This document shows, one piece after another, positions 2,877 through 56,840 of a DNA stretch of 64,000 nt. Source of the stretch: a virus. The notes beneath the pieces were generated by a model. It saw only the letters and a program-made list of their open reading frames with translations, was not told where the DNA came from and ran no database searches. Within the stretch, counting starts at the first letter, position 1. Every line of letters begins with the position of its first letter. The translations under genes and the position numbers were made by a program. The stretch lies in IMG/VR virus record IMGVR_UViG_3300045988_154953. The stretch is one strand, 5' to 3'.

Positions 2877-2877
2877 T

Positions 2878-5027: not shown

Positions 5028-6128
5028 GTGGAAAAGGCATATAAATATAGAATATATCCAAATAAAAAGCAAAAAGAACTTATTCATAAAACTTTTGGAT
5101 GTACTAGATTCGTATATAATACATATCTTGCAAAAAGAATTGAGAAATATGAAAAAGATAAAATCACATTTACTTATATACAATGTGCAAATGATATGAA
5201 AAATCTTAAAACTGAATTAGGATGACTTAAAGAAGTTGATTCTACTGCTCTTCAATCATCCCTTAAAGATTTAGATGTTGCTTATCAAAAATTTTTTAAA
5301 GAGCATGCTGGTTATCCAAAGTTTAAATCAAAGAAAACACATAAATATTCTTACAAGTCAAAATGTACTAATGAAAATATCCAGTATTGTGACAAGCATA
5401 TAAAATTACCTAAGCTTGGAATGGTAAAAACAAGAAACAAATTAATACCACAAGGAAGAATACTTAATGCAACTGTGTCACAAGAATCTAGTGGTAAATA
5501 TTATGTATCACTCTGCTGTACTGATGTAGATATAAAACCATTGGAAAAGACTGGAAATTCAATTGGAATTGATTTAGGAATTAAAGAATTTTGTATTACA
5601 TCAGATGGTGAAATGATAGAAAATCCAAAATATCTCAAGAAGTCTTTAGACAAACTTGCAAAGTTACAAAGAGAGTTGTCTCGAAAATCAAAAGGTGGTT
5701 CAAATTGTAATAAAGCAAGAATTAAGGTTGCAAGACAACACGAGAAAATTACAAATCAGAGAAAAGATTTTTTGCAGAAATTATCTACTAAAATTATTAA
5801 ATACAACGACATTATTTGTATTGAAGATTTACAAGTTAAAAACATGATTAAAAATCATAAACTTGCAAGAAGTATTGCAGATGTATCATGGTCTGAGTTC
5901 GTTAGACAGTTAGAGTACAAAGCTAATTGGTATGGTAAACAGATTGTAAAAGTAGATAAGTTCTTTGCAAGCTCACAGACTTGCAGTGTTTGTGGGTATG
6001 TTAATAAAGAAACAAAGAATCTTGGTATTCGTGAATGGGATTGCCCGCAATGCGGGACACATCATGATCGAGATATAAATGCTGCTATAAATATCTTAAA
6101 TGAAGGATTAAGAGTTTTGGCAGCATAA
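5028..6128 (+). pseudogene. tnpB: TnpB (OrfB/IS605 RNA-guided nuclease family) with one in-frame TGA at 5223-5225
   Basis: GTG start after GAGGTGA. AYKYRIYPN start motif. C-terminal CSVCG..CPQCG zinc finger and RuvC-like D residues. The TGA replaces the Trp of the conserved ..WLKEVDS.. motif. Confidence 0.8.
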
Positions 6129-10266: not shown

Positions 10267-12867
10267 ATGAATGGATTAAACAAAAATGAGGTTCTTGAAA
10301 GTAGAAGAACTTATGGAAGTAATAAGCTTCCAGAACCTAAAATGAAGAAATGGTATGATTTTGCTATACAAGCATTAACAGAAAAAATTACATTAATTTT
10401 AATCGCAATTGCAGTTTTACAGTTAGTTCTTGGAATAATTGGAGTTTCGGAAATTTCAACTCCAATTATGATTATTATCGTACTTGCAATCGTAACAATA
10501 CTTGGTATAAAAACAAATCTTGGAGTACAAAGATCAGCTGCCGAATTACGAGCGAGAACAGCAACCAGATATTGTGATGTAATTCGTAATGGAGAACTTC
10601 AAACAATAAATAAAGATGAACTAGTAGTTGGTGATCTTGTATGTGTGAGAATGGGACAAGAAATATTTGCAGATGGTTATTTGATTGAAGGTAAAATTTC
10701 AGTAAATAACGCTGCTATTAATGGTGAAACAAAAGAATGTAAGAAAACACCAATTGAAGGATACAAACATATAAAAACAACATCTACAGATGCTTATACA
10801 AATCAAAACTGTTTATTCGCAGGAACTACAGTTATGGCCGGTGAAGGTAAAATGATTGTTACAGATGTTGGTGTTAATACTATAAATGGTGATACACTTG
10901 TTAAAATGCAGACTCTTGAAGCACCTAAAACAGCTCTTGATATTGCACTTGATAATTTATGTGATTTTATCTCAAAATGGGGTACAATTGCAGCATTTGT
11001 AGCATTTGTTATTCTCATGATAACTAGTGTCATGCAAGTTGGTTTTGTGGAATATTTTAGTGGTGATATTCTTGATATTATTCATAAAATTGCATTGAAT
11101 TTTTCTGTAGCAGTAACAATTATTGTAGCTGCTGTACCAGAGGGTCTTCCAATGATTGTCAAGCTTGTTACAAAACAGAATGTTAATACAATGGAAAAAT
11201 TTAATATTCTTGCAAAAAATCCTGGAAAGATTCCAGAACTTGCTTATGTTGATATCATTTGCACAGATAAAACTGGTACATTAACAACAGGAATTATGAC
11301 ACCAAAGAAAATCATTGATGGATATGGAAATGAAGTTGATCAGAAATCAATTCTTTGGAGTAATATTAAAGATAATATTTGTTTAAATAATAGTGCTGCG
11401 TTTGATTCAGATGATAATATTACAGGCGGGAATTCAATTGACAGAGCACTTCTTGGACTGGTTTCTTCGGAACAATATAATGAAATCATTAACAGATATT
11501 CTGTTAAATTAAAACAGGTATTTAGTAGTGAAAATAAGTATTCTGCATTTACATGTTCTGATGGAGTTACATATTATAAAGGTGCTCCAGAAAAACTTAT
11601 TGACTCATGTACATCAGTTTTAAATTCTGGAGTAGAAATATTTTCTGATAACAACAAAAAGAAATTATATGAACATATTAAGGAAATGACAGAAAAGTCA
11701 ATGAGATGTATTGCTTTAACAATGAGTAATGAAGATTTGGTTGAAAATCAGCTTCCAAATAATATGACGTTTCTTGGTGTTATTGGAGTAGTAGATCCTG
11801 TAAGAGATGAAGTACCTGATGCTGTTAAAACAGCTCATGAAGCGGGTATACAGGTAATTGAAATTACAGGTGATTGTCTTGAAACAGCGAAAGCAGTTGC
11901 TGCGGAATGTGGAATTTACAAAAACGGTGATCTTGCCATTACAAATGATGAGTTTGAAAAAATGTCTGATGATGAAGTTAAATTAATCATTCCTAGATTG
12001 AGAGTTATTTCAAGATGTTCACCAAATACAAAATTAAGACTTGTAACTATTGCTCAAGAAGTAGGAAAATCAGTTGCCATGACAGGTGATGGAGTTAATG
12101 ATTCACCAGCATTAAAGAAAGCAGACGTTGGTTTTGGAATGCAAAGCGGATCTGATGTAGCAAAAGAAGCATCAGACATTATATTGACAGATGATAATTT
12201 TGCAAGTGTTGTAAAAGCAGTCGAACTTGGCAGAACATTCATGCACAATATTATGATGTTCCTTGAGTTTCAGCTCCCTATTAATATTTCACTTTTAATT
12301 TTGAGCGTAATTTATCCTATCATTGCGACAGGTGCATTACTTGCTTCTGTTCAAATTCTGATAATTAATATTATCATGGATTCTTTGAATTCATTATCAT
12401 TTGGTGGTGAGCCACCGAAAGAAGAATATATGCTAGAGAAACCTATTAAAAAAGGATCTGGACTTTTTATTAGAGGAGCAAAGAAACGAATTGCTGTTAG
12501 TACGATCACGTTTATTGTTTTATATGCGATTATTACATTTACTCCAATTAAGAATATGTTTTCGTCAGAAACAGAAGCTATGACCGCAAGATTTGCATTA
12601 CTTTGTTTTATGGCTGTGTTCAATGGGTTTAATATCCGTACAGAACATATGAATTTATTTAAAGGAATCGGAAAGAATAAGTTGTTTTTATATATTGCAA
12701 TTGGAATTTTTGTAATGACGATTGTTTTATGTAATGTTGTAGGATCATTCATTAAAGTGACTCAGTTGGATTCAATACATTGGTTAACAATTATTGCATT
12801 ATCATTTATTGTTATTCCAGTTGATCTTATCAGAAAGGTAATCGACCGTAAAACTAAGGAGGCATAA
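10267..12867 (+). CDS. P-type ATPase, Ca2+-ATPase-like (P2 type)
   Basis: DKTGTLT phosphorylation site, TGD, GDGVNDSPALKKADVG hinge, about 10 TM segments. Confidence 0.9.
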   Translation: MNGLNKNEVLESRRTYGSNKLPEPKMKKWYDFAIQALTEKITLILIAIAVLQLVLGIIGVSEISTPIMIIIVLAIVTILGIKTNLGVQRSAAELRARTATRYCDVIRNGELQTINKDELVVGDLVCVRMGQEIFADGYLIEGKISVNNAAINGETKECKKTPIEGYKHIKTTSTDAYTNQNCLFAGTTVMAGEGKMIVTDVGVNTINGDTLVKMQTLEAPKTALDIALDNLCDFISKWGTIAAFVAFVILMITSVMQVGFVEYFSGDILDIIHKIALNFSVAVTIIVAAVPEGLPMIVKLVTKQNVNTMEKFNILAKNPGKIPELAYVDIICTDKTGTLTTGIMTPKKIIDGYGNEVDQKSILWSNIKDNICLNNSAAFDSDDNITGGNSIDRALLGLVSSEQYNEIINRYSVKLKQVFSSENKYSAFTCSDGVTYYKGAPEKLIDSCTSVLNSGVEIFSDNNKKKLYEHIKEMTEKSMRCIALTMSNEDLVENQLPNNMTFLGVIGVVDPVRDEVPDAVKTAHEAGIQVIEITGDCLETAKAVAAECGIYKNGDLAITNDEFEKMSDDEVKLIIPRLRVISRCSPNTKLRLVTIAQEVGKSVAMTGDGVNDSPALKKADVGFGMQSGSDVAKEASDIILTDDNFASVVKAVELGRTFMHNIMMFLEFQLPINISLLILSVIYPIIATGALLASVQILIINIIMDSLNSLSFGGEPPKEEYMLEKPIKKGSGLFIRGAKKRIAVSTITFIVLYAIITFTPIKNMFSSETEAMTARFALLCFMAVFNGFNIRTEHMNLFKGIGKNKLFLYIAIGIFVMTIVLCNVVGSFIKVTQLDSIHWLTIIALSFIVIPVDLIRKVIDRKTKEA

Positions 12868-12868
12868 A

Positions 12869-13645
12869 ATGGGATTATTTGGTAAATTATTCAAAGGGAA
12901 CAAAGTTGATACGAAAGAAAATGAAGCTATACTAAAAAATAGCACAGTTAGTCAAAACGTGATTGACATGTCTAAGTCATCAGAAAACTTAAATAAAGTT
13001 CTGATCAATATGTCTAAAACCGGAAAAATTGATATGACAAAACATGTTGCACGAGTTGCACTTGCTATGGATTATTCTGGCAGTATGTATAATTTGTATG
13101 ACAATGGATCTGTACAGAATGTTATCACAAGACTTCTTCCTATCGCATTGAAATTCGATGATAATGGTGAACTTGAAGCTTGGTTGTTTTCTAATGGTAA
13201 AGAAAGACTTGCTGCAGTAACAACTGAAAATTATAAAAACTATGTAAAAAAAGTAATGATGAAGTCAGGAATGAGAATGGGCGGTACAAATTATGCGCCT
13301 GTATTGGAAGATATGGTGATGTATTATAAAGATATTGAACCAAGCACTGTTCCAGCATTTATCATTTTTATTACAGACGGAGAAAATTTCGACACCGATG
13401 AAACGAATAGAATTATAAAAGAGTTATCAAACTATAATATTTTTATTCAATTTATTGGTATTGGTAATGAAGATTTTAAATACCTTAAATCCTTAGATAA
13501 CATGAAAGGTAGAAAACATGATAATACAGGGTTTACAGCTGTAGAGGATATGAACAAAATGACAGACGAAGAGTTGTACACAGAAATACTTAGACAGTAT
13601 AGTGCTTGGTATGAACGTAGTAAAGGAGTAAATAAATATGAGTAA
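12869..13645 (+). CDS. vWA domain protein (TerF/TerY-like)
   Basis: MIDAS motif DYSGSM. FITDGEN motif. Confidence 0.75.
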   Translation: MGLFGKLFKGNKVDTKENEAILKNSTVSQNVIDMSKSSENLNKVLINMSKTGKIDMTKHVARVALAMDYSGSMYNLYDNGSVQNVITRLLPIALKFDDNGELEAWLFSNGKERLAAVTTENYKNYVKKVMMKSGMRMGGTNYAPVLEDMVMYYKDIEPSTVPAFIIFITDGENFDTDETNRIIKELSNYNIFIQFIGIGNEDFKYLKSLDNMKGRKHDNTGFTAVEDMNKMTDEELYTEILRQYSAWYERSKGVNKYE

Positions 13646-14276
13646 TGTAATTAATATGAGTAAGAATCAGAAAATTAATATGACTAAAGATAATGGTGAG
13701 GCAATTAAGAATTTCTTCATTGGTGTAAATTGGGATCAAAATAGATATGCTGGAGAAGCAGATATTGATTTTGATATCAATGGTTTCTTAACAAATTCTG
13801 ACAGAAAAGTAATATACCCAAAAGATATTGTTAATTATAATACATATAATAGCAACGATTATCCATGGGTTGAATATTCCGGTGATAATTTAACAGGTGA
13901 TAATTCTATAGGTATTACATTTGATGGAAAGCATTATGATGAGTATTTTATTGTACACGCTGATTTATTTCCAAATGATAGAACAGATTTTACTATTTGC
14001 TTAACAATTTATAGAGCGGTTCAAAGATTGCAGAATTTTGGTATGATAAGCAATGCTTCAATGATGATTTGTGATTATGATGATCCAAGTGATAAAAAAT
14101 GGGAGTTTAACCTTTCTGAAGATGAAAAATTTGAAAATTTAAATGCTGTAGAAATAGGAAGACTTTATCGTTACGGTAACGGATTTAAATTTCAAGCACT
14201 TGGATCAGGATATGTCGGTGGAATGACAGAGCTGTTCAAAAACTTTGGATTAGATATTGATGAAGGTAGGGATTGA
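13638..14276 (+). CDS. TerD-family stress protein
   Basis: GDNLTGD signature (TerD Ca2+-binding motif) and IGVNWD motif. Confidence 0.75.
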   Translation: MSNVINMSKNQKINMTKDNGEAIKNFFIGVNWDQNRYAGEADIDFDINGFLTNSDRKVIYPKDIVNYNTYNSNDYPWVEYSGDNLTGDNSIGITFDGKHYDEYFIVHADLFPNDRTDFTICLTIYRAVQRLQNFGMISNASMMICDYDDPSDKKWEFNLSEDEKFENLNAVEIGRLYRYGNGFKFQALGSGYVGGMTELFKNFGLDIDEGRD

Positions 14277-14279
14277 TAG

Positions 14280-15011
14280 GTGGCTGCAATTATAATTGTT
14301 ATTACCATTATTATAGTTGGTGTATTATTTTTCACAAAGACAGGCAAAAGATTGAGACTTAGAGCGTCAGGCACAGCAGAAGAAATGATAACAAAAGATG
14401 CTGCAACACCAAATGGAGCTAAAGCACACTATAATGCCGTTATTTCAAAAAAAGAAGAAGAATATCAGAACGTAAACAAATTTTATACTGAAACGCTTGG
14501 AAACATTAAATTCTATGAAACACAATTGCGTTCATTGCAAAAAGAAAATATGCAGTTAAACCTTAATATTAATAATTGTGTTGAGAAAAACGATGATAAT
14601 GGTGCTAAAGTATATTTAGGTCGTCAACAAGAAGTAAATGATAAGATTGATATTATCAAAAATACTTTAGTTGAATTACGAAGAAATTCTGAGCTTCAAA
14701 AGGAAAATTTAGATACATTATATGAAAATATTAATAATTTAAAGTCCGAAAAGGAAACTTCAGTTTTGACTCTTGAAGCAGCTGAGATAACAAAATCATT
14801 AAAATCCGCTCCTGGTGTTTATTCGCAAGAAGAAGATAAAATGCTTGAAAAAGTACGCGATGGAGTAAAGAAAGCTAAGAAAGAAGCAGATGGCGTTAGT
14901 ATCGCTTATGAAAATTCAATGGATGTTCAACAGAAACGTCTTGATAAGAAAATGAAAGATGACGAAGTTAATAGAAAGCTTAAACAACTAAAAGATGCTA
15001 AGAAAAAATAA
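14280..15011 (+). CDS. membrane-anchored coiled-coil protein, PspA/IM30-like (tentative)
   Basis: N-terminal TM helix followed by a long heptad-rich helical region of PspA-like composition. GTG start. Confidence 0.5.
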   Translation: MAAIIIVITIIIVGVLFFTKTGKRLRLRASGTAEEMITKDAATPNGAKAHYNAVISKKEEEYQNVNKFYTETLGNIKFYETQLRSLQKENMQLNLNINNCVEKNDDNGAKVYLGRQQEVNDKIDIIKNTLVELRRNSELQKENLDTLYENINNLKSEKETSVLTLEAAEITKSLKSAPGVYSQEEDKMLEKVRDGVKKAKKEADGVSIAYENSMDVQQKRLDKKMKDDEVNRKLKQLKDAKKK

Positions 15012-15026
15012 ACTAATCAATTTAAC
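15010..15026 (+). promoter_or_regulatory. 17-nt motif copy M7 (AAACTAATCAATTTAAC)
   Basis: Ends 8 nt upstream of the -35 at 15035. Confidence 0.55.
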
Positions 15027-15034
15027 AAAAAATA

Positions 15035-15066
15035 TTGACAGAAAATAATATATATGATATTATAAT
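15035..15066 (+). promoter_or_regulatory. SigA-type promoter of the RNA-array operon
   Basis: TTGACA, 17 nt, TGaTATTAT(AAT). Confidence 0.65.
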
Positions 15067-15096
15067 CATGTCAGCAAGGATAGTTTTTGTAAAATT

Positions 15097-15113
15097 AAAC
15101 TAATCAATATAAT
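15097..15113 (+). promoter_or_regulatory. 17-nt motif copy M8 (AAACTAATCAATATAAT)
   Basis: Exact consensus, about 35 nt downstream of the promoter. Confidence 0.55.
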
Positions 15114-15354
15114 TTCCAAATGGTTTAAAATTTCCATTTGTTGAAAGAATCTGGTGTACGGAGCACGATAAATTGTTTTATTTAATTATAAAATAATTTG
15201 TAAGAAATAAGTTCAATTCTTATTGATTCTTCTTTGGCTTGCTGAAGCCAATCTCATACTTTTCATTCCATATCTTCTTTATAAGCTCTGATCCAGTTTT
15301 GAAGAATACATTGGAAGATGTTCACTTACTCATCTATAAAAAAGTAAGTAATAT

Positions 15355-15437
15355 AGGAGTGTGGTGAAATTGGATAGACACCCCAGATTTTGATTCTGGT
15401 GTCGCAAGACGTGTGGGTTCGAGTCCCACCACTCCCG
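15355..15437 (+). tRNA. class II (long variable arm) tRNA with apparent anticodon UUG
   Basis: T arm GTGGG-TTCGAGT-CCCAC. 3-bp D stem with a 12-nt loop. Anticodon arm CCAGA-TTTTGAT-TCTGG. Variable arm GTC-GCAA-GAC. Discriminator G. A1xC72 mismatch. Confidence 0.6.
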
Positions 15438-15636
15438 CTATGAACAAACTCCGAAGTACAAGGATAGTAGTTCAGAATGGATCCATAAAACAATTAAAAC
15501 ATCAAAAATACGCTGTTTTATTTCTTTATATTTAAATCTCGGTTTGGAGTTTGTAAGAAACAGTCTTTAGGTTACGTTAATATCTAGAAAACTTACCGGA
15601 GTTCGGCACTCTGGAGTGGATGTCTACCACTCAAGT

Positions 15637-15706
15637 TGCACTGCTAATGGATTAGCTGCTAAGTAGTCATTGGCCATGCAGAAAGGTTCGATTCCTTTCA
15701 GTGCAA
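15637..15706 (+). ncRNA. tRNA-like gene with non-canonical D and anticodon arms
   Basis: Acceptor TGCACTG/CAGTGCA. T arm AAAGG-TTCGATT-CCTTT. D region CTAA-TGGA-TTAG. Best anticodon arm GCTAA-GTAGTCA-TTGGC has C at position 37. Confidence 0.45.
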
Positions 15707-15963
15707 TTAAATTCTTTATTTCAGAGAAGTGAATAATCAGCATTAGGCTTAACACAAATGATAAGCATAAACTTGTTGCCAAGTGATTCTTGTAAAAAGA
15801 TTATAGAGTAAACTATTAAAAATCCTGCAAATAATCTCGTAGATCAGAGATTATCAGATATCTAGTCAATAAAAGGCGTTCACGACATCTGACAGAGAAT
15901 ATTAATTATTATGAAATGTATAAAATTAATGCGGATCATTTGCTTAGAATCATGATTCAGGTT

Positions 15964-16026
15964 TGTTCATTGGTGTAAAGGTGCATATCAGAAATGATGG
16001 TTCTGGTTCGACTCCAGAATGAACAA
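15964..16026 (+). ncRNA. tRNA-like gene lacking an anticodon arm (63 nt)
   Basis: Acceptor TGTTCAT/ATGAACA, a D arm, and T arm TCTGG-TTCGACT-CCAGA. The anticodon arm is replaced by ATCA-GAAA-TGAT. Confidence 0.5.
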
Positions 16027-16126
16027 TTATCTCATAAGTAGAAATGAGATGTGAGGACGCTATCCAAAATATAAGAAATAGTAAGCTTATGGATTGCTTG
16101 TACAAATATGCTGAAAATCCACACTT

Positions 16127-16200
16127 AGGAAATTAGCTCAGTTGGTGAGAGCGGCGGCCTTATAAGCCGTGTGTGCTGGGTTCAAGTCCCAGATTTCCTA
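16127..16200 (+). tRNA. tRNA-Ile (anticodon UAU)
   Basis: Full cloverleaf: AGGAAAT/ATTTCCT, GCTC-AGTTGGTGA-GAGC, GCGGC-CTTATAA-GCCGT, CTGGG-TTCAAGT-CCCAG. No encoded CCA. Confidence 0.85.
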
Positions 16201-16387
16201 TTCAATATAAAATAAGTATAAATGAACCATATAAAATATTCATATGTCATTCACTCCTGTTTTTACATACAATCTTTTTGGTTCATTAAATTCTATTTTG
16301 TATTTAGGCGATTTCTGCAATTCAAAGAAATTATAAAGTTATAATTAGACTTAAAATCTAATCGATAAAATTATATCGTCTAGTAAT

Positions 16388-16456
16388 GGCTTCATGGCGT
16401 AAAGGTTAGCGCAATAATCTAGTAATGAGGATCTGGTTCGAATCCAGATGAAGCCA
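16388..16456 (+). ncRNA. tRNA-like gene with an unpaired, shortened anticodon region
   Basis: Acceptor GGCTTCA/TGAAGCC, a D arm, and T arm TCTGG-TTCGAAT-CCAGA. The 19-nt middle segment AATAATCTAGTAATGAGGA forms no stem. Confidence 0.5.
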
Positions 16457-16504
16457 GCAGTATTTATTACTGTAATTCTTTTATATACCCTCCAATACAA
16501 CAGA

Positions 16505-16557
16505 TAGACACTAACAGCAATTTTTACATATGGTATTAAAAATATTTATGGTGTCTA
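16505..16557 (+). ncRNA. stem-closed ACAGCAA element E1
   Basis: TAGACAC (16505-11) pairs with GTGTCTA (16551-57). ACAGCAA at 16514-20. Confidence 0.5.
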
Positions 16558-16563
16558 GAATAT

Positions 16564-16683
16564 GGAAGACGTAGGGAAGTGGCCAAACCCAACAAAGAAT
16601 AGTGGTTAGCTACTTAATCGCTTACAGCAAAGTTAATTGTAAAACAGGCAAGTTTTCGTGAGTTCGAATCTCACCGTCTTCCA
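16564..16683 (+). tRNA. interrupted class II tRNA-like gene (Tyr-like D arm), about 45-nt insertion carrying ACAGCAA
   Basis: Acceptor GAAGACG/CGTCTTC with G-1 and C73. D arm GGG-AAGTGGCCAAA-CCC. Variable arm AAAAC-AGGCAA-GTTTT. T arm GTGAG-TTCGAAT-CTCAC. ACAGCAA at 16624-30. Anticodon not assignable. Confidence 0.5.
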
Positions 16684-16688
16684 AACCT

Positions 16689-16811
16689 CGTCAGATAGTT
16701 TCAATTGGTAAAACACTGCTTAAATCAAATGTGATTAGTTAATTAATCACTAACAGCAATATTCTTATGATGGGCCTGGCAGAACTATAGGTTCGAATCC
16801 TATTCTGGCGA
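16689..16811 (+). tRNA. interrupted tRNA-like gene; the anticodon-stem halves are separated by about 57 nt
   Basis: Acceptor CGTCAGA/TCTGGCG. D arm GTTT-CAATTGGTA-AAAC. Stem CTGCT...GGCAG. Inner hairpin GTGATTA-GTTAAT-TAATCAC followed by TA-ACAGCAA (16753-59). T arm ATAGG-TTCGAAT-CCTAT. Confidence 0.5.
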
Positions 16812-16813
16812 TT

Positions 16814-16870
16814 TAGACGGATACAGCAATTTAATGGATAAGACTTTTAATCTTAATACCAAGCCGTCTA
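16814..16870 (+). ncRNA. stem-closed ACAGCAA element E2 with a Lys(UUU) anticodon stem-loop and no D/T arms
   Basis: TAGACGG/CCGTCTA 7-bp closing stem. ACAGCAA at 16823-29. TAAGA-CTTTTAA-TCTTA at 16839-55. Confidence 0.55.
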
Positions 16871-16877
16871 GTATATG

Positions 16878-16992
16878 AGGAATATAGCTCAGTTGGTAGA
16901 GCATCGGACAATACAAAAAAGAGTCTAGTTATAGACTTGAACAGCAAATTATAAAACTCTGACTGTCGTTGGTTCGAATCCAACTATTCCTC
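16878..16992 (+). tRNA. interrupted tRNA-like gene (Lys-like body); the anticodon-stem halves are separated by 49 nt
   Basis: Acceptor AGGAATA/TATTCCT. D arm GCTC-AGTTGGTA-GAGC. Stem TCGGA...TCTGA. Inner hairpin GAGTCTA-GTTA-TAGACTT followed by GA-ACAGCAA (16941-47). T arm GTTGG-TTCGAAT-CCAAC. Confidence 0.5.
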
Positions 16993-16994
16993 AT

Positions 16995-17059
16995 TAGGTG
17001 CAATTACAGCAAAAAGAAAAGCGTATAATTTGGGATTATAATAGCAAAAACTGCACCTA
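16995..17059 (+). ncRNA. stem-closed ACAGCAA element E3 with a Pro(UGG) anticodon stem-loop and no D/T arms
   Basis: TAGGTGCA/TGCACCTA 8-bp closing stem. ACAGCAA at 17006-12. TATAA-TTTGGGA-TTATA at 17024-40 (G at position 37, as in tRNA-Pro). Confidence 0.55.
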
Positions 17060-17066
17060 GTTTGTC

Positions 17067-17193
17067 AAGTGGGTAGCTCAGTGGTAGAGCACGATAATAA
17101 GATAATGTGTCGAGTACTTTAGTGACACTTACAGCAATTTTTCTTTTTTGCATTTTAAGCACGATGTCGTAGGTTCGAGTCCTGCCCCACTTG
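17067..17193 (+). tRNA. tRNA-Lys(UUU)-like gene with a 55-nt insertion between the D arm and the anticodon arm
   Basis: Acceptor AAGTGGG/CCCACTT. D arm GCTC-AGTGGTA-GAGC. Insertion 17092-17146 contains GTGTC..GACAC-TT-ACAGCAA. Anticodon arm TTTGC-ATTTTAA-GCACG (4 of 5 pairs). Variable loop ATGTC. T arm GTAGG-TTCGAGT-CCTGC. Confidence 0.55.
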
Positions 17194-17196
17194 TTT

Positions 17197-17268
17197 TAGA
17201 TGATAACAGCAATTCACGAAAATATAAACACATTTATTAAACAAGTATAAAAGTTATAAAATCATCTA
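17197..17268 (+). ncRNA. stem-closed ACAGCAA element E4
   Basis: TAGATGAT/ATCATCTA closing stem. ACAGCAA at 17206-12. Confidence 0.5.
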
Positions 17269-17276
17269 GCGATTAT

Positions 17277-17335
17277 AAGACAGTTACAGCAACACTATTA
17301 TATAAAAGACTTAAAATTTAAAACAAAACTGTCTT
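17277..17335 (+). ncRNA. stem-closed ACAGCAA element E5
   Basis: AAGACAGT/ACTGTCTT closing stem. ACAGCAA at 17286-92. Weak Leu(UAA)-like loop CTTAAAA. Confidence 0.5.
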
Positions 17336-17384
17336 GGAATCAAAGTAACTTTACAACAATTTTGGTTCAAAGGAGAATAAATTT

Positions 17385-18938
17385 ATGTTTATGAACGATT
17401 TAAAAGAAACGTTAAATGAAGATTTTAATGAATCTATCACCGAAAATAATGCCAATGGTTATAGAACAACAGGAAAAGAACTGTTGGATATGAACTTTAT
17501 GGTATCTTCGATGAGAAAAATGAGTGATAAACAAATTATTGATAAATTTGTAAAAGCTTTCTATGAAAATAAAATGTATGCAATTAAATGGTTGTATTAC
17601 GTAAGGGATGCTCGTGAGGGAGTTGGCGAGAGAAGATTGTTCAGAGTTTGTATGGAATATCTTGCAAAGAATCATACAGACATTGCAAAAGCCATGATCC
17701 CTTTGACAGCTGAATATGGTCGTTGGGATGACTTATTATCTTTACTTGATACAGAATTAGCTGACAATGTTATTAAATTATTTGGTGATCAGCTTACTGA
17801 AGATATGAAAAACTTGAAATCAAATAAACCTATTTCATTATTAGGTAAATGGATGCCTAGCTGCAATGCATCATCTAGAAAAACTAGAAAACTGGGTGTA
17901 GAGATTGCGGAAAAGCTTGGTATTTCTGAAAGGAAGTATAGAAAGATGCTTTCTGCCATCAGAAAATATCTTGACGTTGTAGAAGTTAAAATGGCTGCAG
18001 GACAATGGGATCAGATTGATTATTCAAAAGTTTCCTCAAGAGCTAATTTAATTTATAATAACGCTTTTCTGAGACATGATGAAGAACGTAGACGTAAATA
18101 CCTTGAAAGCTTGCAAAAAGGCGAAACAAAGATTAATGCCGGTGTATTATTTCCACATGATATTGTACATAAGTATTATAACTTAGATTATTGGCGTATC
18201 AATATTAAAAATTATGATACAGCACTTGAAGAAATGTGGAAGGCATTACCAGATTATGTGAATGGTGCTGGTAATACAATTTGTGTTGCTGATGGGTCTG
18301 GAAGTATGTACACAAGAGTAGGTGGCACAAATGTAATGGCGATTGAAGTAGCAAATGCTTTAGCAATTTATTTTTCCGAAAGATGCTCTGGACAGTTTAA
18401 GGATAATTATATAACCTTTAGTATGAATCCGAAACTTGTTAGTTTTAGTAGAGCTAAATCTTTAAAAGAGAAAATAGAAATTGCTTTAAAACACACCGAA
18501 TGTGCTAATACGAATATTGAAGCCGTATTTGATTTGATTCTTAAAACAGCAATTAGAAAAAATATGAAACAGGATGAATTACCGCAGAATATATTGATTT
18601 TATCGGACATGGAGTTCGATAGTTGTGTTGAATACAATAGAAGTAGCAGATGTAATCTCAATAGACCTACCAAAAGATTATTTAAAGTATTTGAAGAAAG
18701 ATATGCTGAACATGGCTATAAACTTCCAAGATTAGTATTTTGGAATATTTGTAGTAGAACTGGTACAATTCCTGTAAAAGAAAATGATTTAGGTGTAGCA
18801 CTTGTAAGTGGTTTCAGTCCGGCAGTTGTTAAGATGGTACTTAGTAATAGTACAGATCCACTTGAATGTTTACTTGAACAGTTGAATTCAGAAAGATATC
18901 AGCCGGTAGAAGATGCAATCAAGGATTTAGTTGCTTAA
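17385..18938 (+). CDS. DUF2828-type protein: helical N-terminal domain plus C-terminal vWA (Ro60/TROVE-like architecture)
   Basis: N-terminal TENNANGY..TG..LLD motif typical of DUF2828. MIDAS motif DGSGSM at about aa 305. RBS AAAGGAG. Confidence 0.7.
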   Translation: MFMNDLKETLNEDFNESITENNANGYRTTGKELLDMNFMVSSMRKMSDKQIIDKFVKAFYENKMYAIKWLYYVRDAREGVGERRLFRVCMEYLAKNHTDIAKAMIPLTAEYGRWDDLLSLLDTELADNVIKLFGDQLTEDMKNLKSNKPISLLGKWMPSCNASSRKTRKLGVEIAEKLGISERKYRKMLSAIRKYLDVVEVKMAAGQWDQIDYSKVSSRANLIYNNAFLRHDEERRRKYLESLQKGETKINAGVLFPHDIVHKYYNLDYWRINIKNYDTALEEMWKALPDYVNGAGNTICVADGSGSMYTRVGGTNVMAIEVANALAIYFSERCSGQFKDNYITFSMNPKLVSFSRAKSLKEKIEIALKHTECANTNIEAVFDLILKTAIRKNMKQDELPQNILILSDMEFDSCVEYNRSSRCNLNRPTKRLFKVFEERYAEHGYKLPRLVFWNICSRTGTIPVKENDLGVALVSGFSPAVVKMVLSNSTDPLECLLEQLNSERYQPVEDAIKDLVA

Positions 18939-18943
18939 AAAGA

Positions 18944-19008
18944 ATAGATACGCACAGCAATTAAGAAGTTTGGTTTAGGTTCACATCCTTTTTCAAATAT
19001 TTGTATCT
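18944..19008 (+). ncRNA. stem-closed ACAGCAA element E6
   Basis: TAGATAC/GTATCTA closing stem. ACAGCAA at 18953-59. Starts 6 nt after the stop of 17385..18938. Confidence 0.5.
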
Positions 19009-19037
19009 AGATAAAAAATAGAAACGTTAAAAGTTAT

Positions 19038-27054: not shown

Positions 27055-28386
27055 ATGGAGGCTATGAACTGGAACCCGGTATTAAGCAAGTTTGTAGAAA
27101 TTAAAAATGAATTCAAAAAGAAACTTGGATATATAACTTACTATTATACTGAAGGTTACACAAACGAATCTCAAACTTGTTTAGAAAGATGGGTAGAATA
27201 TTTAAATGGTATTAAGCCGTTTAATCAATATCAAGAGTATGCAGATTTGCTTTCATGTCTTGAATTAAATCAATATGGAGATTTTCTTCTTTTAAGATAT
27301 GGAAGATATAGTAACATTTATGATGGTGAAATTGAAAAGTCTGGTGAGGATTTTTGGGATAGATATGAGGGTTTTTACAGAGAATGTAGAAGTATAGTAA
27401 TTGATGTAAAAAATGATTGTATTGTACTTTGCCCATTTCGCAAATTTTTTAATCTAAATGAGTTAGAAGAAACTAGTGAAGAAAACATTAATAAAAGAAT
27501 TGAGAACGCATCACTTATAGAATTTTCAAATAAATTAGATGGATCGATGCAAACAGCTACATGGTACGATGGTAAAATTATTATGGCTGGAAGTCAAGCA
27601 ATAAATCCAGAAAAATCGTGGAGATTACAGGATGGATACAGAATGATTCAAGCGTTGCCTGGATATGAGCAAATGCTTAAAATGCATCCTAACTTTACAT
27701 TTATATTTGAATATATCTCTTTGGCCGATGCTCATGTAGTAAAATATAAAAAAGAGCAAGAAGGTCTATATCTTATTGGTATTAGAGATAATTTAACAGG
27801 ACATGAACTTAGTTATCGTAAGGTGATAGATATTGCTAATCATTTTAATATTCCAACAACGGTATTATTTGATAAAACACTTGGACAAATCTTAAATGAA
27901 TTAGATAACAAAAGTTCAGAAGAAGCAGAAGGCTTTGTTATTAACATTGATGAATATAAAGTTAAAGTGAAATATAATGATTATGTACATATTCATAAAG
28001 CACTGTCTAAACTCTCTTCAATAAATCTTATTATTCGTTCTATTGCAGATGATCAGTACGATGATCTCTTATCTAAACTTCCAGCAGCTTATCATGATAG
28101 TGTAAAAAAAGTAGCTGCTATCGTATTCAGATATATAAAAGATACAGAACGAACTTCTAACGAATATTTTCAGCAAGCTCCAAAAACTAGTCAAAAAGAA
28201 TTCATGATCTGGATTGATAGAAATGTTCCTAAAAAGTTCCGTGGATTTTGTAGGGAATTGTATTTTGGAAACGAAATTAATGTAATTAAATTCAATCAAT
28301 CTGGAGATCCAAAATATTTAAAATTAAATCAAATGGGAGTAAATGATTACTCTACATTATTCACACAGGAGGAAGAAAATGAGTAA
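27055..28386 (+). CDS. ATP-dependent RNA ligase (T4 Rnl1-like)
   Basis: Nucleotidyl-transferase motif I KLDGS and EGFV(I) motif. Size and layout fit phage RNA ligases. Confidence 0.7.
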   Translation: MEAMNWNPVLSKFVEIKNEFKKKLGYITYYYTEGYTNESQTCLERWVEYLNGIKPFNQYQEYADLLSCLELNQYGDFLLLRYGRYSNIYDGEIEKSGEDFWDRYEGFYRECRSIVIDVKNDCIVLCPFRKFFNLNELEETSEENINKRIENASLIEFSNKLDGSMQTATWYDGKIIMAGSQAINPEKSWRLQDGYRMIQALPGYEQMLKMHPNFTFIFEYISLADAHVVKYKKEQEGLYLIGIRDNLTGHELSYRKVIDIANHFNIPTTVLFDKTLGQILNELDNKSSEEAEGFVINIDEYKVKVKYNDYVHIHKALSKLSSINLIIRSIADDQYDDLLSKLPAAYHDSVKKVAAIVFRYIKDTERTSNEYFQQAPKTSQKEFMIWIDRNVPKKFRGFCRELYFGNEINVIKFNQSGDPKYLKLNQMGVNDYSTLFTQEEENE

Positions 28387-29269
28387 ACCTATACTTTGGG
28401 TTATGGTAGGACTTTCGGGAAGCGGTAAGTCAACGATTGCTAAAAAAATTGCTGCTGATAATCCTAATACACTAATAATATCGTCAGATAATATTCGTGA
28501 AGAAATAACCGGTGATTATGAAGACCAGGAACATAACGCAGAAGTATTTAATATTTTTCATGATAGAATTCTCAAGAATCTTGAAAATAAACAGAACGTC
28601 GTAGCCGATGCTACAAATCTTACAATAAAATCCCGTAGATCAATTTTGAATAAAGTGAATGGATTAGATATTGAGAAAATATGTGTTATTATTCCAAAAC
28701 CATTTGAAAAGTGTAAAGAAGATAATTTACATAGAGAGCATCCTGTACCAGAAGATGTATTAAATAAACAGCTCAGAAGATTTCAAGTACCATTTAAAGA
28801 AGAAGGGTGGAATGAAATTAAAATCCATTATTTACAAAAAGATGGATATGAACCAAATGAGATTCGTTTCTTAGATATGGAAAGTTTTGATCAGAAGAAC
28901 CCGCATCATACTATGGATTTACTTGAGCATTGTACACATGCAACAGACATGTTTATCGAAAAACACAAATATTCGCCAGAATTTATAATTGGTGCTTTAT
29001 ATCATGATATTGGTAAGCTGTACACACAAACATTTGATGAAAACGGTATAGCTCATTACTACCAGCATCATGCGGTCGGTTCATATTTGTATTTTACTAG
29101 TATGTATCCAATAGGGAATCCTGTATTAGATACATGTTTTCTTATCAACTATCATATGATGCCATTTAGTTGGGAAAGCGATAAGTCAAAGAAAAAGTGG
29201 AAAAAGATATTTGGTAATTATAAATATCAAATGCTTTTAGATTTTAATGAATGTGACAAGGCGAGATAG
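28379..29269 (+). CDS. polynucleotide kinase (P-loop) fused to an HD-domain phosphohydrolase
   Basis: GLSGSGKST Walker A at the N-terminus. HHTMDLLEH and YHDIGK (HD motif) in the C-terminal half. ATG at 28379 after AGGAGGAAG overlaps the ligase stop. Confidence 0.7.
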   Translation: MSKPILWVMVGLSGSGKSTIAKKIAADNPNTLIISSDNIREEITGDYEDQEHNAEVFNIFHDRILKNLENKQNVVADATNLTIKSRRSILNKVNGLDIEKICVIIPKPFEKCKEDNLHREHPVPEDVLNKQLRRFQVPFKEEGWNEIKIHYLQKDGYEPNEIRFLDMESFDQKNPHHTMDLLEHCTHATDMFIEKHKYSPEFIIGALYHDIGKLYTQTFDENGIAHYYQHHAVGSYLYFTSMYPIGNPVLDTCFLINYHMMPFSWESDKSKKKWKKIFGNYKYQMLLDFNECDKAR

Positions 29270-56839: not shown

Positions 56840-56840
56840 A

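What the first reader, a model, noticed from the sequence alone, without database searches (positions are those of the whole stretch)
16814..17059. Two inter-tRNA spacers are 57-65 nt mini-tRNA-like RNAs with perfect Lys(UUU) and Pro(UGG) anticodon arms but no D or T arms
E2 reads as:
- 7-bp closing stem TAGACGG/CCGTCTA
- 18 unpaired nt containing ACAGCAA
- TAAGA-CTTTTAA-TCTTA, the canonical tRNA-Lys loop with C32, U33 and A37
- 8 nt, then the 3' strand of the closing stem

E3 reads as:
- 8-bp closing stem TAGGTGCA/TGCACCTA
- the ACAGCAA region
- TATAA-TTTGGGA-TTATA, with U33, anticodon UGG and G37, as in tRNA-Pro

Two perfect 5-bp/7-nt arms with isotype-correct loop positions among six short elements is unlikely by chance. 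They fill the whole spacer, starting 2-3 nt after one tRNA and ending about 7 nt before the next.

Two readings fit. They could be armless tRNAs like those of some metazoan mitochondria. They could also be anticodon-stem-loop mimics acting as decoys or baits for anticodon nucleases. tRNA-Lys(UUU) is the classic PrrC target, and this phage also carries an RNA ligase and kinase.
Basis: partly seen in the sequence, partly recalled or inferred. Interest (0 to 1): 0.8.

Follow-up and report, generated by a model that had tools for sequence, protein, structure and literature searches.

The report
Anticodon-arm RNAs partnering a phage Ro60-like protein
The two spacer elements are real anticodon-arm mimics, and they belong to a large, apparently undescribed family of phage small RNAs that share a "helix + ACAGCAA" handle and sit next to a Ro60-like protein gene, so they are most likely Y-RNA-like partners of that protein rather than tiny tRNAs.

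Summary
E2 (16814-16871) and E3 (16995-17060) fold as described: a closing stem, unpaired ACAGCAA, and a perfect 5-bp/7-nt Lys(UUU) or Pro(UGG) anticodon arm.

They are not isolated. The window holds 9 ACAGCAA copies in 780 nt, all on one strand. Five lie in spacer elements and four inside tRNA genes. A sixth spacer-type element follows the next gene.

That gene (17385-18938, DUF2828+DUF7788) is predicted to have the Ro60 fold. In 160 related loci the same helix+ACAGCAA element lies beside the homologous gene, and all 287 covariance-model hits are on the gene's strand. It also occurs in cultured phages: FelixO1, Listeria LP-125, Campylobacter, Staphylococcus, Enterococcus, KVP40, Lak and mycobacteriophage Kingsolomon. 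In Kingsolomon the same handle encloses a YrlA-type tRNA-like domain.

A search from the RNA pattern alone recovers the gene in 80 of 120 loci. About 40% of the short elements carry an anticodon-like arm (58 with at least 5 bp, against 7 expected).

Best reading: these are Y-RNA analogues whose variable module mimics an anticodon arm. Binding, and a decoy or repair role, are inferred. The armless-tRNA reading is not supported. No Rfam family or paper describing it was found.

The parts
15035..15063 (+). Near-consensus sigma-70-type promoter (TTGACA-17-TATTAT with TG) at the head of the tRNA/element array. No terminator-like site lies between it and the DUF2828 gene, apart from one that is simply a tRNA T arm.
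   Evidence: function inferred
16505..16558 (+). E1. Closing stem TAGACAC/GTGTCTA plus G, ACAGCAA at 16514-16520. The inner hairpin is not anticodon-like.
   Evidence: R1 covariance model 38.7 bits, E 1.8e-7; fold z -3.2
16564..16682 (+). Class II tRNA-like gene with an insertion that contains ACAGCAA (16624-16630) in the anticodon region. No clean anticodon loop could be reconstructed.
16689..16811 (+). tRNA scaffold. The region enclosed by its anticodon stem (CTGCT/GGCAG) holds hairpin GTGATTAGTTAATTAATCAC (16731-16750), then TA, then ACAGCAA (16753-16759).
16814..16871 (+). E2 (the finding). 7-bp closing stem, AT, ACAGCAA, then a Lys(UUU)-type anticodon arm TAAGA-CUUUUAA-UCUUA, then an unpaired G.
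   Evidence: best R1 hit in the window, 58.7 bits, E 1e-12; MFE fold; coordinates
16877..16993 (+). tRNA scaffold (Rfam tRNA 51.8 bits). Between anticodon-stem strands TCGGA/TCTGA lies a 48-nt insertion: hairpin 16921-16938, then GA, then ACAGCAA 16941-16947.
16995..17060 (+). E3 (the finding). 8-bp closing stem, ATT, ACAGCAA, then a Pro(UGG)-type arm UAUAA-UUUGGGA-UUAUA, then an unpaired G.
   Evidence: R1 36.5 bits, E 6e-7; fold; coordinates
17067..17193 (+). tRNA-Lys(UUU)-like gene. Hairpin 17107-17128, TT and ACAGCAA 17131-17137 are inserted in the 5' strand of the anticodon stem. Removing the insertion between positions 28 and 29 would give CGTGC-ATTTTAA-GCACG.
   Evidence: splicing not shown
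17197..17269 (+). E4. Closing stem TAGATGAT/ATCATCTA plus G, ACAGCAA at 17206-17212. The inner part is A/U-rich with no anticodon arm.
   Evidence: R1 15.5 bits
17277..17336 (+). E5. Closing stem AAGACAGTT/AACTGTCTT plus G, ACAGCAA at 17286-17292. It holds a degenerate CUUAAAA loop and ends 48 nt before the start codon.
   Evidence: R1 43.3 bits, E 1e-8
17385..18938 (+). Gene for a 517-aa DUF2828 + DUF7788 (vWA) protein with a predicted Ro60 fold. Proposed protein partner of the elements.
   Evidence: Pfam; AF2 model pLDDT 76.5; Foldseek top three PDB hits are Ro60 entries 1yvr, 2i91 and 9nen, full length, E 1.5e-5
18945..19010 (+). A further element starting 7 nt after the stop codon. Closing stem TAGATAC/GTATCTA plus G, ACAGCAA at 18954-18960.
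   Evidence: R1 27.6 bits, E 1.3e-4
27055..29269 (+). T4 Rnl1-family RNA ligase (27055-28386) and an overlapping AAA_33 kinase (28343-29269). This is RNA-repair context, about 8 kb downstream.

Best explanation
E2 and E3 are two members of a widespread family of phage small RNAs.

**Anatomy.** The family is defined by a portable handle: a 7-9-bp helix whose 5' strand is followed, after 0-3 nt, by invariant single-stranded ACAGCAA.
- In the stand-alone form (E1-E5 and the post-gene copy), the helix closes the RNA and ends in an unpaired G.
- In four neighbouring tRNA genes the same handle is circularly permuted. The helix is capped by a loop, and the handle is inserted just 5' of the anticodon loop.

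**Partner.** The handle is most likely the binding site of the Ro60-like ring protein (HEAT-repeat ring plus vWA domain) encoded just downstream at 17385-18938. These RNAs would then be functional analogues of Y RNAs: a conserved protein-binding stem plus a variable effector module.

**E2 and E3.** In these two the effector module faithfully mimics an anticodon stem-loop, Lys-UUU in E2 and Pro-UGG in E3.

**Likely working.**
- The array is transcribed with the tRNAs from the promoter at about 15035.
- The elements are released by the enzymes that trim the flanking tRNAs.
- The Ro60-like protein binds the helix/ACAGCAA handle.
- The particle then displays an anticodon arm, or holds the anticodon arm of a complete phage tRNA.
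- It would take part in anticodon-loop damage and repair together with the phage RNA ligase and kinase. It could act as a bait or decoy for host anticodon nucleases, or as a platform that brings repair enzymes to anticodon loops.

**Shown:** the anatomy, the conservation, the strand- and gene-linkage, and the predicted Ro60 fold of the protein.
**Inferred:** expression as separate RNAs, protein binding, and the decoy or repair role.
For: 1. Linkage from protein to RNA.
- In 80 viral loci with DUF2828 homologues (49-69% identity), ACAGCAA occurs 471 times on the gene strand and 31 times on the other.
- Covariance model R1 gives 212 hits there, all on the gene strand.
- In 80 independent loci from bacterial genome assemblies it gives 75 hits, again all on the gene strand. 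67 of those 80 loci have at least one upstream copy.

2. Linkage from RNA to protein. An RNA-only pattern search returned 120 viral loci. 80 of them hold a DUF2828 homologue within the DNA fetched, 79 on the same strand.

3. Depth of conservation.
- The element lies next to the gene in a 37%-identical homologue (L001).
- It is also present in FelixO1, Listeria LP-125, Campylobacter NCTC12673, Staphylococcus SEP9, Enterococcus ZJGS2 and KVP40, and weakly (14.5 bits) in Lak-B2, whose protein is 24% identical.

4. Within the 64-kb window, 7 of the 8 full-length R1 hits lie within 2.5 kb of the gene.

5. The protein's predicted structure matches Ro60 over its full length, and Ro60 entries are the top three PDB hits. 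Mycobacteriophage records annotate it as 'Ro-like RNA binding protein'.

6. Mycobacteriophage Kingsolomon.
- The same handle (TGGACCCC-C-ACAGCAA ... GGGGTCCA-G) encloses a region matching Rfam YrlA, the known tRNA-like Y RNA.
- That match scores 37.9 bits (E 6e-7), below the family's gathering score.
- It is flanked by two stand-alone elements, one with a CUGCUAA arm.

7. Both helices covary: 96% of cells are paired and 12 of 12 pairs show compensatory changes in the independent set.

8. RNA-repair neighbours.
- Rnl2-type RNA ligases lie next to the gene in at least 23 viral loci, and a cysteine desulfurase in 22.
- An RtcB-like ligase is nearby in Listeria LP-125.
- An Rnl1-type ligase and a kinase are in this window.

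9. This mirrors known Y RNA biology. Y RNAs are encoded within 4 kb of Ro60 on the same strand, have a conserved 5'-strand motif in a terminal stem, and in bacteria carry tRNA-like modules (PMC4201824).
Against: - No binding or expression data exist; all evidence is comparative.
- The handle sequence (ACAGCAA) differs from the known Ro60-binding motifs (GGUCCGA, GNCGAA).
- E2 and E3 do not match the Rfam Y_RNA or YrlA models.
- They are shorter (58-66 nt) than known Y RNAs (80-130 nt).
- The protein is not a Pfam TROVE member, and the structural match has only a moderate TM-score (0.45) from a model with pLDDT 76.
- About 60% of stand-alone elements lack an anticodon arm, so mimicry of the anticodon arm is not a general property of the family.
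- 40 of the 120 pattern-derived loci show no gene in the DNA held, some with more than 5 kb on both sides.
- Handles inside otherwise good tRNAs fit an intron-like role at least as well.
Confidence: 0.6

Rival explanations
1. The helix+ACAGCAA module is an intron-like or processing element. In the tRNA genes it would be cut out by a protein endonuclease and the exons joined by the phage RNA ligase and kinase, giving functional tRNAs. The stand-alone elements would be free-standing or decayed copies. The Ro60-like protein would act as a splicing or chaperone cofactor, or be unrelated.
For: - In 86 of 132 module-bearing tRNAs a canonical loop (U33, R37) lies directly 5' of the anticodon-stem 3' strand.
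- Removing the insertion restores a perfect 5-bp stem, for example CG|TGC-AUUUUAA-GCACG in the window and CGU|GC-CUGUUAA-GCACG in L006.
- Insertion sites vary (26/27, 28/29, 29/30, 31/32), as do non-canonical archaeal introns.
- RNA ligase genes are adjacent.
- 'Enigmatic introns' have been reported in Lak phage tRNAs (bioRxiv 10.1101/356790), and Lak-B2 carries a homologue plus an element.
Against: - No endonuclease candidate was found.
- No conserved nucleotides mark the junctions, and the distance from ACAGCAA to the 3' junction varies from 4 to 14 nt.
- No pair of the same tRNA with and without the insertion was found.
- Several lineages have degenerate loops lacking U33.
- In one conserved class the hairpin loop pairs with the 3' trailer, which implies a larger stable RNA.
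- This reading does not explain the stand-alone elements, the YrlA-type member, or the copies with no tRNA nearby.
Confidence: 0.17
2. The elements are cis-acting signals and not free RNAs. They would be either autoregulatory operators in the leader of the DUF2828 mRNA, or punctuation that directs nuclease processing of the tRNA array.
For: - The element nearest the gene ends a median of 69 nt before the start codon.
- In KVP40 the 3' strand of the closing stem overlaps the start codon of the gene.
- The elements fill the spaces between tRNAs, and no terminator separates the array from the gene.
Against: - There are up to 10 copies per locus, up to 2.5 kb upstream, and also downstream of the gene (FelixO1, Staphylococcus SEP9, L081).
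- Copies lie inside tRNAs.
- The inner anticodon arms are maintained by compensatory change. A pure cleavage signal or operator would not need that.
Confidence: 0.1
3. E2 and E3 are armless (D- and T-arm-less) decoding tRNAs that are given CCA, charged and used in translation.
For: - They have a 7-8-bp terminal stem with one unpaired 3' G, like an acceptor stem with a discriminator base.
- They have a perfect 5-bp/7-nt anticodon arm with U33 and R37.
- Some relatives keep a T arm, or both D and T arms, inside the same closing stem (L006:2823, L068:4704).
- The set of anticodons seen is broad.
Against: - The same closing-stem consensus is shared across all anticodons, so there is no isotype-specific acceptor identity.
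- The connectors are 18-21 nt and 8-11 nt, and hold an invariant non-tRNA heptamer.
- Most family members have no anticodon arm.
- Neither ARAGORN nor Rfam tRNA detects them.
- From general knowledge: bacterial aminoacyl-tRNA synthetases, EF-Tu and ribosomes are not known to use such RNAs.
Confidence: 0.03
4. The elements are decaying relics of tRNA genes or selfish repeats with no function, and the anticodon arms are leftovers.
For: - Many elements have degenerate or absent arms. E5 has a weak CUUAAAA hairpin, and 59 of 99 gene-proximal elements have none.
- The array also holds other broken tRNA-like sequences.
Against: - ACAGCAA is invariant, and both helices change in a compensatory way, across phages of Firmicutes, Proteobacteria, Actinobacteria and Bacteroidota whose proteins are only 24-40% identical.
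- Strand bias is strict (287 to 0).
- Lengths peak tightly at 57-67 nt.
Confidence: 0.05

Closest known systems
Y RNAs, especially bacterial and phage YrlA (Rfam RF02553), with Ro60/Rsr
   Same: - Small RNAs encoded beside a Ro60-fold protein gene, on the same strand, often in several copies.
- The terminal stem is formed by the two ends, with a short conserved motif on its 5' strand.
- The second module is variable and derived from tRNA.
- RNA ligase genes lie nearby (rsr-yrlBA-rtcBA in Salmonella).
- In mycobacteriophage Kingsolomon a YrlA-like T/D-arm domain sits inside the very handle described here.
   Different: - The protein belongs to DUF2828/DUF7788 and is not a Pfam TROVE member.
- The conserved motif is ACAGCAA, not GGUCCGA or GNCGAA.
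- The RNAs are half the size.
- The mimicked part is the anticodon arm, which YrlA lacks.
- The handle also occurs circularly permuted inside complete tRNAs.
- Binding is untested.
Armless mitochondrial tRNAs of nematodes and mites
   Same: A terminal 7-bp stem plus an anticodon arm, with no D or T arm, in an RNA of about 60 nt.
   Different: - The connectors are long and carry an invariant heptamer.
- One stem consensus is shared by all 'isotypes'.
- Most relatives have no anticodon arm.
- The elements are linked to a Ro60-like gene.
tRNA introns: archaeal bulge-helix-bulge introns at non-canonical sites, bacterial group I introns, and the 'enigmatic introns' of Lak megaphage tRNAs
   Same: Insertions of 30-70 nt in or beside the anticodon stem of phage tRNAs. 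Removing them would restore a normal anticodon arm. Their positions vary.
   Different: - They are far too short for group I introns, and no Rfam ribozyme matches.
- No bulge-helix-bulge motif was identified, and none sits at position 37/38.
- The same module also exists as stand-alone RNAs.
Anticodon-arm mimics used as protein-binding sites (the E. coli thrS operator) and minimal anticodon-stem-loop substrates of anticodon nucleases such as PrrC and colicins E5 and D
   Same: An isolated 5-bp/7-nt anticodon arm is enough for recognition by anticodon-binding proteins. This rests on established knowledge and was not tested here.
   Different: Here the arm is mounted on a conserved handle, is encoded in tRNA arrays, and comes with many different anticodons.

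Membership tests
Y RNA / YrlA | Encoded within about 4 kb of a Ro60-type protein gene, on the same strand | tested here: met
   Six stand-alone elements and four embedded modules lie within 900 nt upstream, or 7 nt downstream, of the Ro60-fold gene. All 287 model hits in 160 related loci are on the gene strand.
Y RNA / YrlA | Terminal stem formed by the 5' and 3' ends, carrying the protein-binding site | tested here: met
   The 7-9-bp closing stem shows compensatory changes at all 7 pairs. That it is the binding site is inferred.
Y RNA / YrlA | Ro60-binding motif GGUCCGA or GNCGAAN0-1G on the 5' strand | tested here: not met
   The conserved motif is CRC-N(0-3)-ACAGCAA (R = purine). The known motifs are as given in PMC4201824.
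Y RNA / YrlA | Match to the Rfam Y_RNA or YrlA covariance models | tested here: not met
   No such hit in 14800-17450 even at E <= 5. A sub-threshold YrlA hit occurs only in mycobacteriophage Kingsolomon, inside the same handle.
Y RNA / YrlA | Physically bound by the Ro60 protein | not testable with these tools
   Needs immunoprecipitation or a gel-shift assay.
Ro60 / TROVE proteins (the neighbouring gene) | Pfam TROVE domain | tested here: not met
   Only DUF2828, DUF7788 and a weak VWA_2 hit. A profile search of PDB sequences finds no Ro60.
Ro60 / TROVE proteins (the neighbouring gene) | Helical-repeat ring followed by a vWA domain (the Ro60 fold) | tested here: met
   For the AF2 model, the Foldseek top three hits are Ro60 entries 1yvr, 2i91 and 9nen, aligned over more than 510 columns, E 1.5e-5 to 1.5e-4, TM 0.38-0.45.
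Canonical tRNA | Cloverleaf with D and T arms, detected by tRNA models | tested here: not met
   ARAGORN, with and without intron mode, and Rfam tRNA give no hit for E2 or E3.
Canonical tRNA | Anticodon arm of 5 bp with a 7-nt loop, U33 and a purine at 37 | tested here: met
   E2: UAAGA-CUUUUAA-UCUUA. E3: UAUAA-UUUGGGA-UUAUA.
Armless mitochondrial-type tRNA | Short connectors in place of the D and T arms, and an acceptor stem specific to each isotype | tested here: not met
   The connectors are 18 and 8 nt in E2, and 21 and 11 nt in E3, and hold the invariant ACAGCAA. The same WAGRC/GYCTWG stem consensus is used with Lys, Ser, Cys, Asn, Pro, Ile and other loops.
Armless mitochondrial-type tRNA | CCA addition and aminoacylation | not testable with these tools
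   CCA is not encoded. Needs experiment.
tRNA introns (for the embedded copies) | Group I catalytic core | tested here: not met
   The insertions are 30-70 nt, and no Rfam intron or ribozyme hit was found.
tRNA introns (for the embedded copies) | Bulge-helix-bulge motif at the splice sites | not tested
   Only partial pairing between the two linkers was seen by eye. No systematic search was made.
tRNA introns (for the embedded copies) | Removal in vivo with ligation of the exons | not testable with these tools
   Needs tRNA sequencing.

The most novel reading that the evidence does not exclude
Tailed phages of many bacterial phyla carry a Ro60-like particle whose RNA subunits are modular. A universal helix/ACAGCAA handle is grafted onto anticodon-arm mimics, onto YrlA-type tRNA-like domains, and into the anticodon stems of the phage's own tRNAs.

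The particle would be an anti-defence device. It would bait host anticodon nucleases with decoy arms, and shield or repair phage tRNAs together with the linked RNA ligases.

The anticodon triplet of the decoys would evolve fast to track host nuclease specificity. A first hint: in 19 near-identical element pairs, 19% of anticodon positions differ, against 4% of flank positions and 0.5% of stem positions.
Probability: 0.25. Interest if true: 0.9.

Novelty: new variant of a known kind. Interest (0 to 1): 0.8.

Why it matters
- DUF2828 "RNA-binding" proteins are very common. More than 7,000 homologues reached E <= 1e-20 in the protein search, and 710 cultured phage genomes hold one, including FelixO1, KVP40 and the Listeria, Staphylococcus, Enterococcus, Campylobacter and mycobacteriophage groups. 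I found no report of an RNA partner or a function for them.
- A simple, searchable RNA handle next to the gene gives that family a candidate ligand and makes the question testable in model phages.
- It would extend Ro60/Y RNA biology to a second protein family and to a new kind of tRNA mimicry: the anticodon arm, which YrlA lacks.
- It may explain the odd "pseudo" or "intron-containing" tRNAs annotated in large phages.
- If the arms serve as baits for anticodon nucleases, or as repair platforms, this would be a new phage counter-defence against tRNA-targeting immunity.

Tried and rejected
- **Known RNA families.** Rfam at gathering and at E <= 5 finds only tRNAs in the region. No ribozyme, riboswitch, Y RNA or YrlA matches.
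- **DNA similarity.** blastn of 16380-17380 against 50,697 phage records gave no match. The exact-protein look-up returned only identical contigs.
- **ARAGORN intron mode.** It places the 'introns' at inconsistent positions and uses ACAGCAA as exon sequence, so it is unreliable here.
- **Target-site duplication.** Direct repeats flank some insertions (GCACGAT in 17067-17193; TCAGA in L004:889). The repeat-bounded segment would include the anticodon loop itself, so a DNA-transposon reading was dropped.
- **Same tRNA with and without the insertion.** None was found with blastn-short.
- **Base-pairing target for ACAGCAA.** The complement TTGCTGT is rare on either strand of the loci, so protein recognition is favoured.
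- **Special role for the element nearest the gene.** No preferred anticodon was seen.
- **Sequence-profile search of the PDB.** No Ro60 was found. Only the fold comparison shows the relationship.
- **Literature.** Searches for DUF2828, TROVE/Y RNA in phages, ACAGCAA, phage tRNA introns, anticodon-arm decoys and 'Ro-like' found no description of this element. Supplementary sequences of the Lak phage and YrlA papers are not held.
Full report
**1. The observation**

- E2 runs: TAGACGG, then AT, ACAGCAA, UUUAAUGGA, the arm UAAGA-CUUUUAA-UCUUA, AUACCAAG, then CCGUCUA and an unpaired G.
- E3 has an 8-bp stem UAGGUGCA/UGCACCUA, ACAGCAA, and the arm UAUAA-UUUGGGA-UUAUA.
- RNAfold returns this structure as the minimum-energy and centroid fold of E2 (z = -3.05). 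It returns the same helices for E3 (z = -2.25).
- Neither element is seen by ARAGORN or Rfam tRNA.

**2. The surroundings in the window**

- ACAGCAA occurs nine times between 16514 and 17292, always on the + strand. Window-wide there are 21 copies against 8 expected.
- Five copies sit in spacer elements of one design, E1 to E5. In each, a closing stem's 5' strand ends 0-3 nt before ACAGCAA and an unpaired G follows the 3' strand.
- Four copies sit inside tRNA genes (16564-16682, 16689-16811, 16877-16993, 17067-17193). There a capped hairpin directly precedes ACAGCAA, and the whole insertion lies in the anticodon region.
- Topologically the embedded form is a circular permutation of the stand-alone form. 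In both, the order is helix, 0-3 nt, ACAGCAA, a linker, then an anticodon arm.
- A near-consensus promoter lies at 15035-15063. No terminator separates the array from the next gene.
- That gene, 17385-18938, is DUF2828 + DUF7788/vWA. A sixth stand-alone element starts 7 nt after its stop codon.

**3. Link to the gene**

- A 37%-identical homologue in an unrelated viral contig has one such element about 15 nt upstream of its start codon (L001).
- In 80 viral loci (49-69% protein identity), ACAGCAA occurs 471 times on the gene strand and 31 times on the other. Most copies are within 2.5 kb upstream, and some lie just downstream.
- A covariance model built from 35 elements (R1) gives 212 hits in these loci, all on the gene strand.
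- In 80 further loci from bacterial genome assemblies, mostly gut Clostridia, it gives 75 hits, again all on the gene strand.
- In that independent set 96.4% of cells pair, and all 12 pairs of both helices show compensatory changes. The alignment is fitted to the model, so this leans towards the structure. The slid-partner control drops to 33-50% paired.
- The reverse test needs no protein information. 80 of them hold a DUF2828 homologue in the DNA fetched, 79 on the same strand, typically 30-200 nt downstream.

**4. The protein**

- An AlphaFold2 model (pLDDT 76.5) has Ro60 as its three best PDB matches: 1yvr, 2i91 and 9nen. The alignments are full length, with E 1.5e-5 to 1.5e-4 and TM 0.38-0.45.
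- Sequence methods do not see the relationship.
- tblastn finds homologues in 710 cultured phage genomes. Mycobacteriophage records call it 'Ro-like RNA binding protein'.

**5. Cultured phages**

| Phage | Where the elements lie |
|---|---|
| FelixO1 | In the tRNA spacers just after the gene |
| Listeria LP-125 | Just upstream of the gene; an RtcB-like ligase is downstream |
| Campylobacter NCTC12673 | Between tRNA-Tyr and the gene; one has a CUGAUAA arm |
| Staphylococcus SEP9 | Three copies after the gene |
| Enterococcus ZJGS2 | One model hit upstream of the gene; a second ACAGCAA copy with an anticodon-like hairpin and a T arm |
| KVP40 | The closing stem overlaps the start codon |
| Lak-B2 (24% identical protein) | Weak hit about 100 nt upstream of the gene |
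| Cyanophage B3 | Variant motifs UCAGCAA and ACUGCAA |

Mycobacteriophage Kingsolomon is the most telling case.

- The gene is followed by an element, then a region that matches Rfam YrlA, then another element.
- The YrlA match scores 37.9 bits (E 6e-7), below the family's gathering score.
- The YrlA-like T/D-arm domain is itself enclosed by UGGACCCC-C-ACAGCAA ... GGGGUCCA-G.

So one handle carries a known type of tRNA-like Y RNA domain, anticodon-arm mimics, other hairpins, or whole tRNAs.

**6. The anticodon arms**

- Of 167 distinct short elements, 72 have a hairpin of at least 4 bp with a 7-nt loop, U33 and R37, against 16 expected.
- 58 have at least 5 bp, against 7 expected.
- The loops are classic anticodon loops: CUUUUAA is the commonest, followed by CUUGAAA, CUGCAAA, CUGUUAA, UUUGGGN, CUGAUAA, CUGCUAA, CUCAUAA and CUGAAAA. 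Their stems differ freely.
About 60% of elements carry something else.
- In 19 near-identical pairs the anticodon triplet differs far more often (19%) than flanks (4%) or stems (0.5%). For example, CCGUUAA and CUUUUAA occur with identical flanks. The sample is small and the pairs are not independent, so this is only a hint.

**7. The embedded copies**

- In 86 of 132 cases a canonical loop lies just 5' of the anticodon-stem 3' strand.
- The handle sits 5' of the loop at 26/27, 28/29-29/30 or 31/32.
- Deleting it would restore perfect stems. In the window this gives tRNA-Lys(UUU); in relatives Asn, Thr and Pro.
- One tRNA body carries GUU, UUU, UGU or GCU in different phages.
- Whether these insertions are spliced out or kept cannot be told from sequence.
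- In one conserved class the hairpin loop pairs with the 3' trailer, with covariation. That points to a larger stable RNA.

**8. Interpretation**

The best-supported reading is that helix + ACAGCAA is the binding handle of the Ro60-like protein. E2 and E3 would be Y-RNA-like RNAs whose effector module is an anticodon-arm mimic.

This rests on gene linkage in both directions, depth of conservation, the predicted Ro60 fold, the YrlA-type member, and the parallels with published Y RNA biology (PMC4201824; PMC7824862).

The context is RNA repair:

- Rnl2-type ligases lie next to the gene in at least 23 loci, and a cysteine desulfurase in 22.
- An RtcB-like ligase lies nearby in Listeria LP-125.
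- Rnl1 and a kinase are in this window.

This fits a role in anticodon-loop damage or repair, or in baiting anticodon nucleases. That step is inference. Rival readings are scored separately: an intron or processing signal, a cis-regulatory leader, an armless tRNA, or a relic.

**9. Comparison and novelty**

- The elements work like Y RNAs but fail the sequence-defined membership tests for Y_RNA and YrlA. They also fail the tests for tRNA and for armless tRNA.
- No Rfam family matches, and seven literature searches found no description.
- The 'enigmatic' tRNA introns of Lak phages may be the embedded form, but this could not be checked.
- I rate it a new variant of a known kind: a Ro60-type ribonucleoprotein with a new protein family, a new RNA handle and a new mimicry module.

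Noticed in passing
L022:1690-1790, L008:2455-2560, L014:590-700, L013:1945-2050, L033:2110-2215 and about 25 more related loci: One conserved class of handle-bearing tRNA-like genes starts GGGAGCGTCCGGTGGCAG... and has loops CUGCAAA, CUGGAAA or CUUGAAA. In it, the loop of the hairpin before ACAGCAA is complementary to the 3' trailer just after the tRNA-like end, and the pairing covaries: GACGGT/ACCGTC, AGTGGG/CCCACT, GGTGGA/TCCACC, AACGGC/GCCGTT. The mean longest Watson-Crick run is 5.63, against 4.29 +/- 0.17 when partners are permuted. This implies a pseudoknotted RNA that extends beyond the tRNA 3' end.
   Followed up: partly
L168:3450-3515 (Vibrio phage KVP40): One helix+ACAGCAA element has its closing stem (ACATT/AATGT) overlapping the start codon of the DUF2828 gene, and the ribosome-binding site lies inside the element. 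This may be a translational autoregulatory operator.
   Followed up: no
19 near-identical pairs of short elements from the viral loci, e.g. L042:4612 against L045:4612, L032:1046 against L035:1267, L036:2170 against L049:2837: Near-identical elements differ mainly at the anticodon triplet (11 of 57 positions). Flanks differ at 22 of 497 positions and stems at 1 of 190. This hints at fast change or switching of the mimicked anticodon.
   Followed up: partly
window 16388-16457, 15960-16027, 15595-15706, 15146-15232: The array holds other aberrant tRNA-like sequences without ACAGCAA. One has good acceptor, D and T arms but no pairable anticodon stem (Rfam tRNA 44.8 bits). Others include a 65-nt form with a reduced D arm and further fragments with T arms.
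   Followed up: no
L165:2477-3028 (Listeria phage LP-125): A ROOL RNA match (87.4 bits, E 1.6e-16, just below the gathering score of 99.1) lies within the tRNA array upstream of the DUF2828 gene.
   Followed up: no
L167:7832-7900 and 7922-7983 (Prevotella phage Lak-B2): A distant DUF2828 homologue (24% identity) has a helix+ACAGCAA element about 100 nt upstream, and a second copy with ACCGCAA. Lak phages were reported to have 'enigmatic introns' in tRNAs, which may be the embedded form of this handle.
   Followed up: partly
L172:5250-5530 (Synechococcus phage B3): Variant handles are present: TAGATGAT-TCAGCCA...ATCATCTAG (two copies), TAGGTGGT-TCAGCAA...ACCACCTAG, and a 110-nt annotated 'tRNA-Pseudo-GCA' carrying hairpin + TA + ACTGCAA. 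The core of the motif tolerates some change in cyanophages.
   Followed up: no
window 5421-6128: A TnpB-like ORF (OrfB_IS605 + Cas12f1-like TNB) lies in the phage genome, near two tyrosine-recombinase-type genes (508-1506, 2857-3636) and a DndB-like gene.
   Followed up: no
window 10267-15011: Directly upstream of the tRNA/element array lie a P-type cation ATPase, a vWA-TerF-like protein, a TerD protein and a weak PspA-like protein. In relatives and in mycobacteriophage Kingsolomon an SPFH/Band-7 gene sits upstream of the Ro60-like gene.
   Followed up: no
window 56003-60507: An NAD salvage and synthesis cluster: a PRPP-synthetase-like protein, a NAMPT/NAPRTase-family protein and NAD synthase. 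Phages are known to use such clusters against NAD-depleting defences.
   Followed up: no
L004-L083, 1.6-2.9 kb downstream of the gene start: A class-V aminotransferase (cysteine desulfurase type) directly follows the DUF2828 gene in 22 viral loci. This may link to thiolation of tRNA wobble uridines (Lys, Glu, Gln).
   Followed up: no
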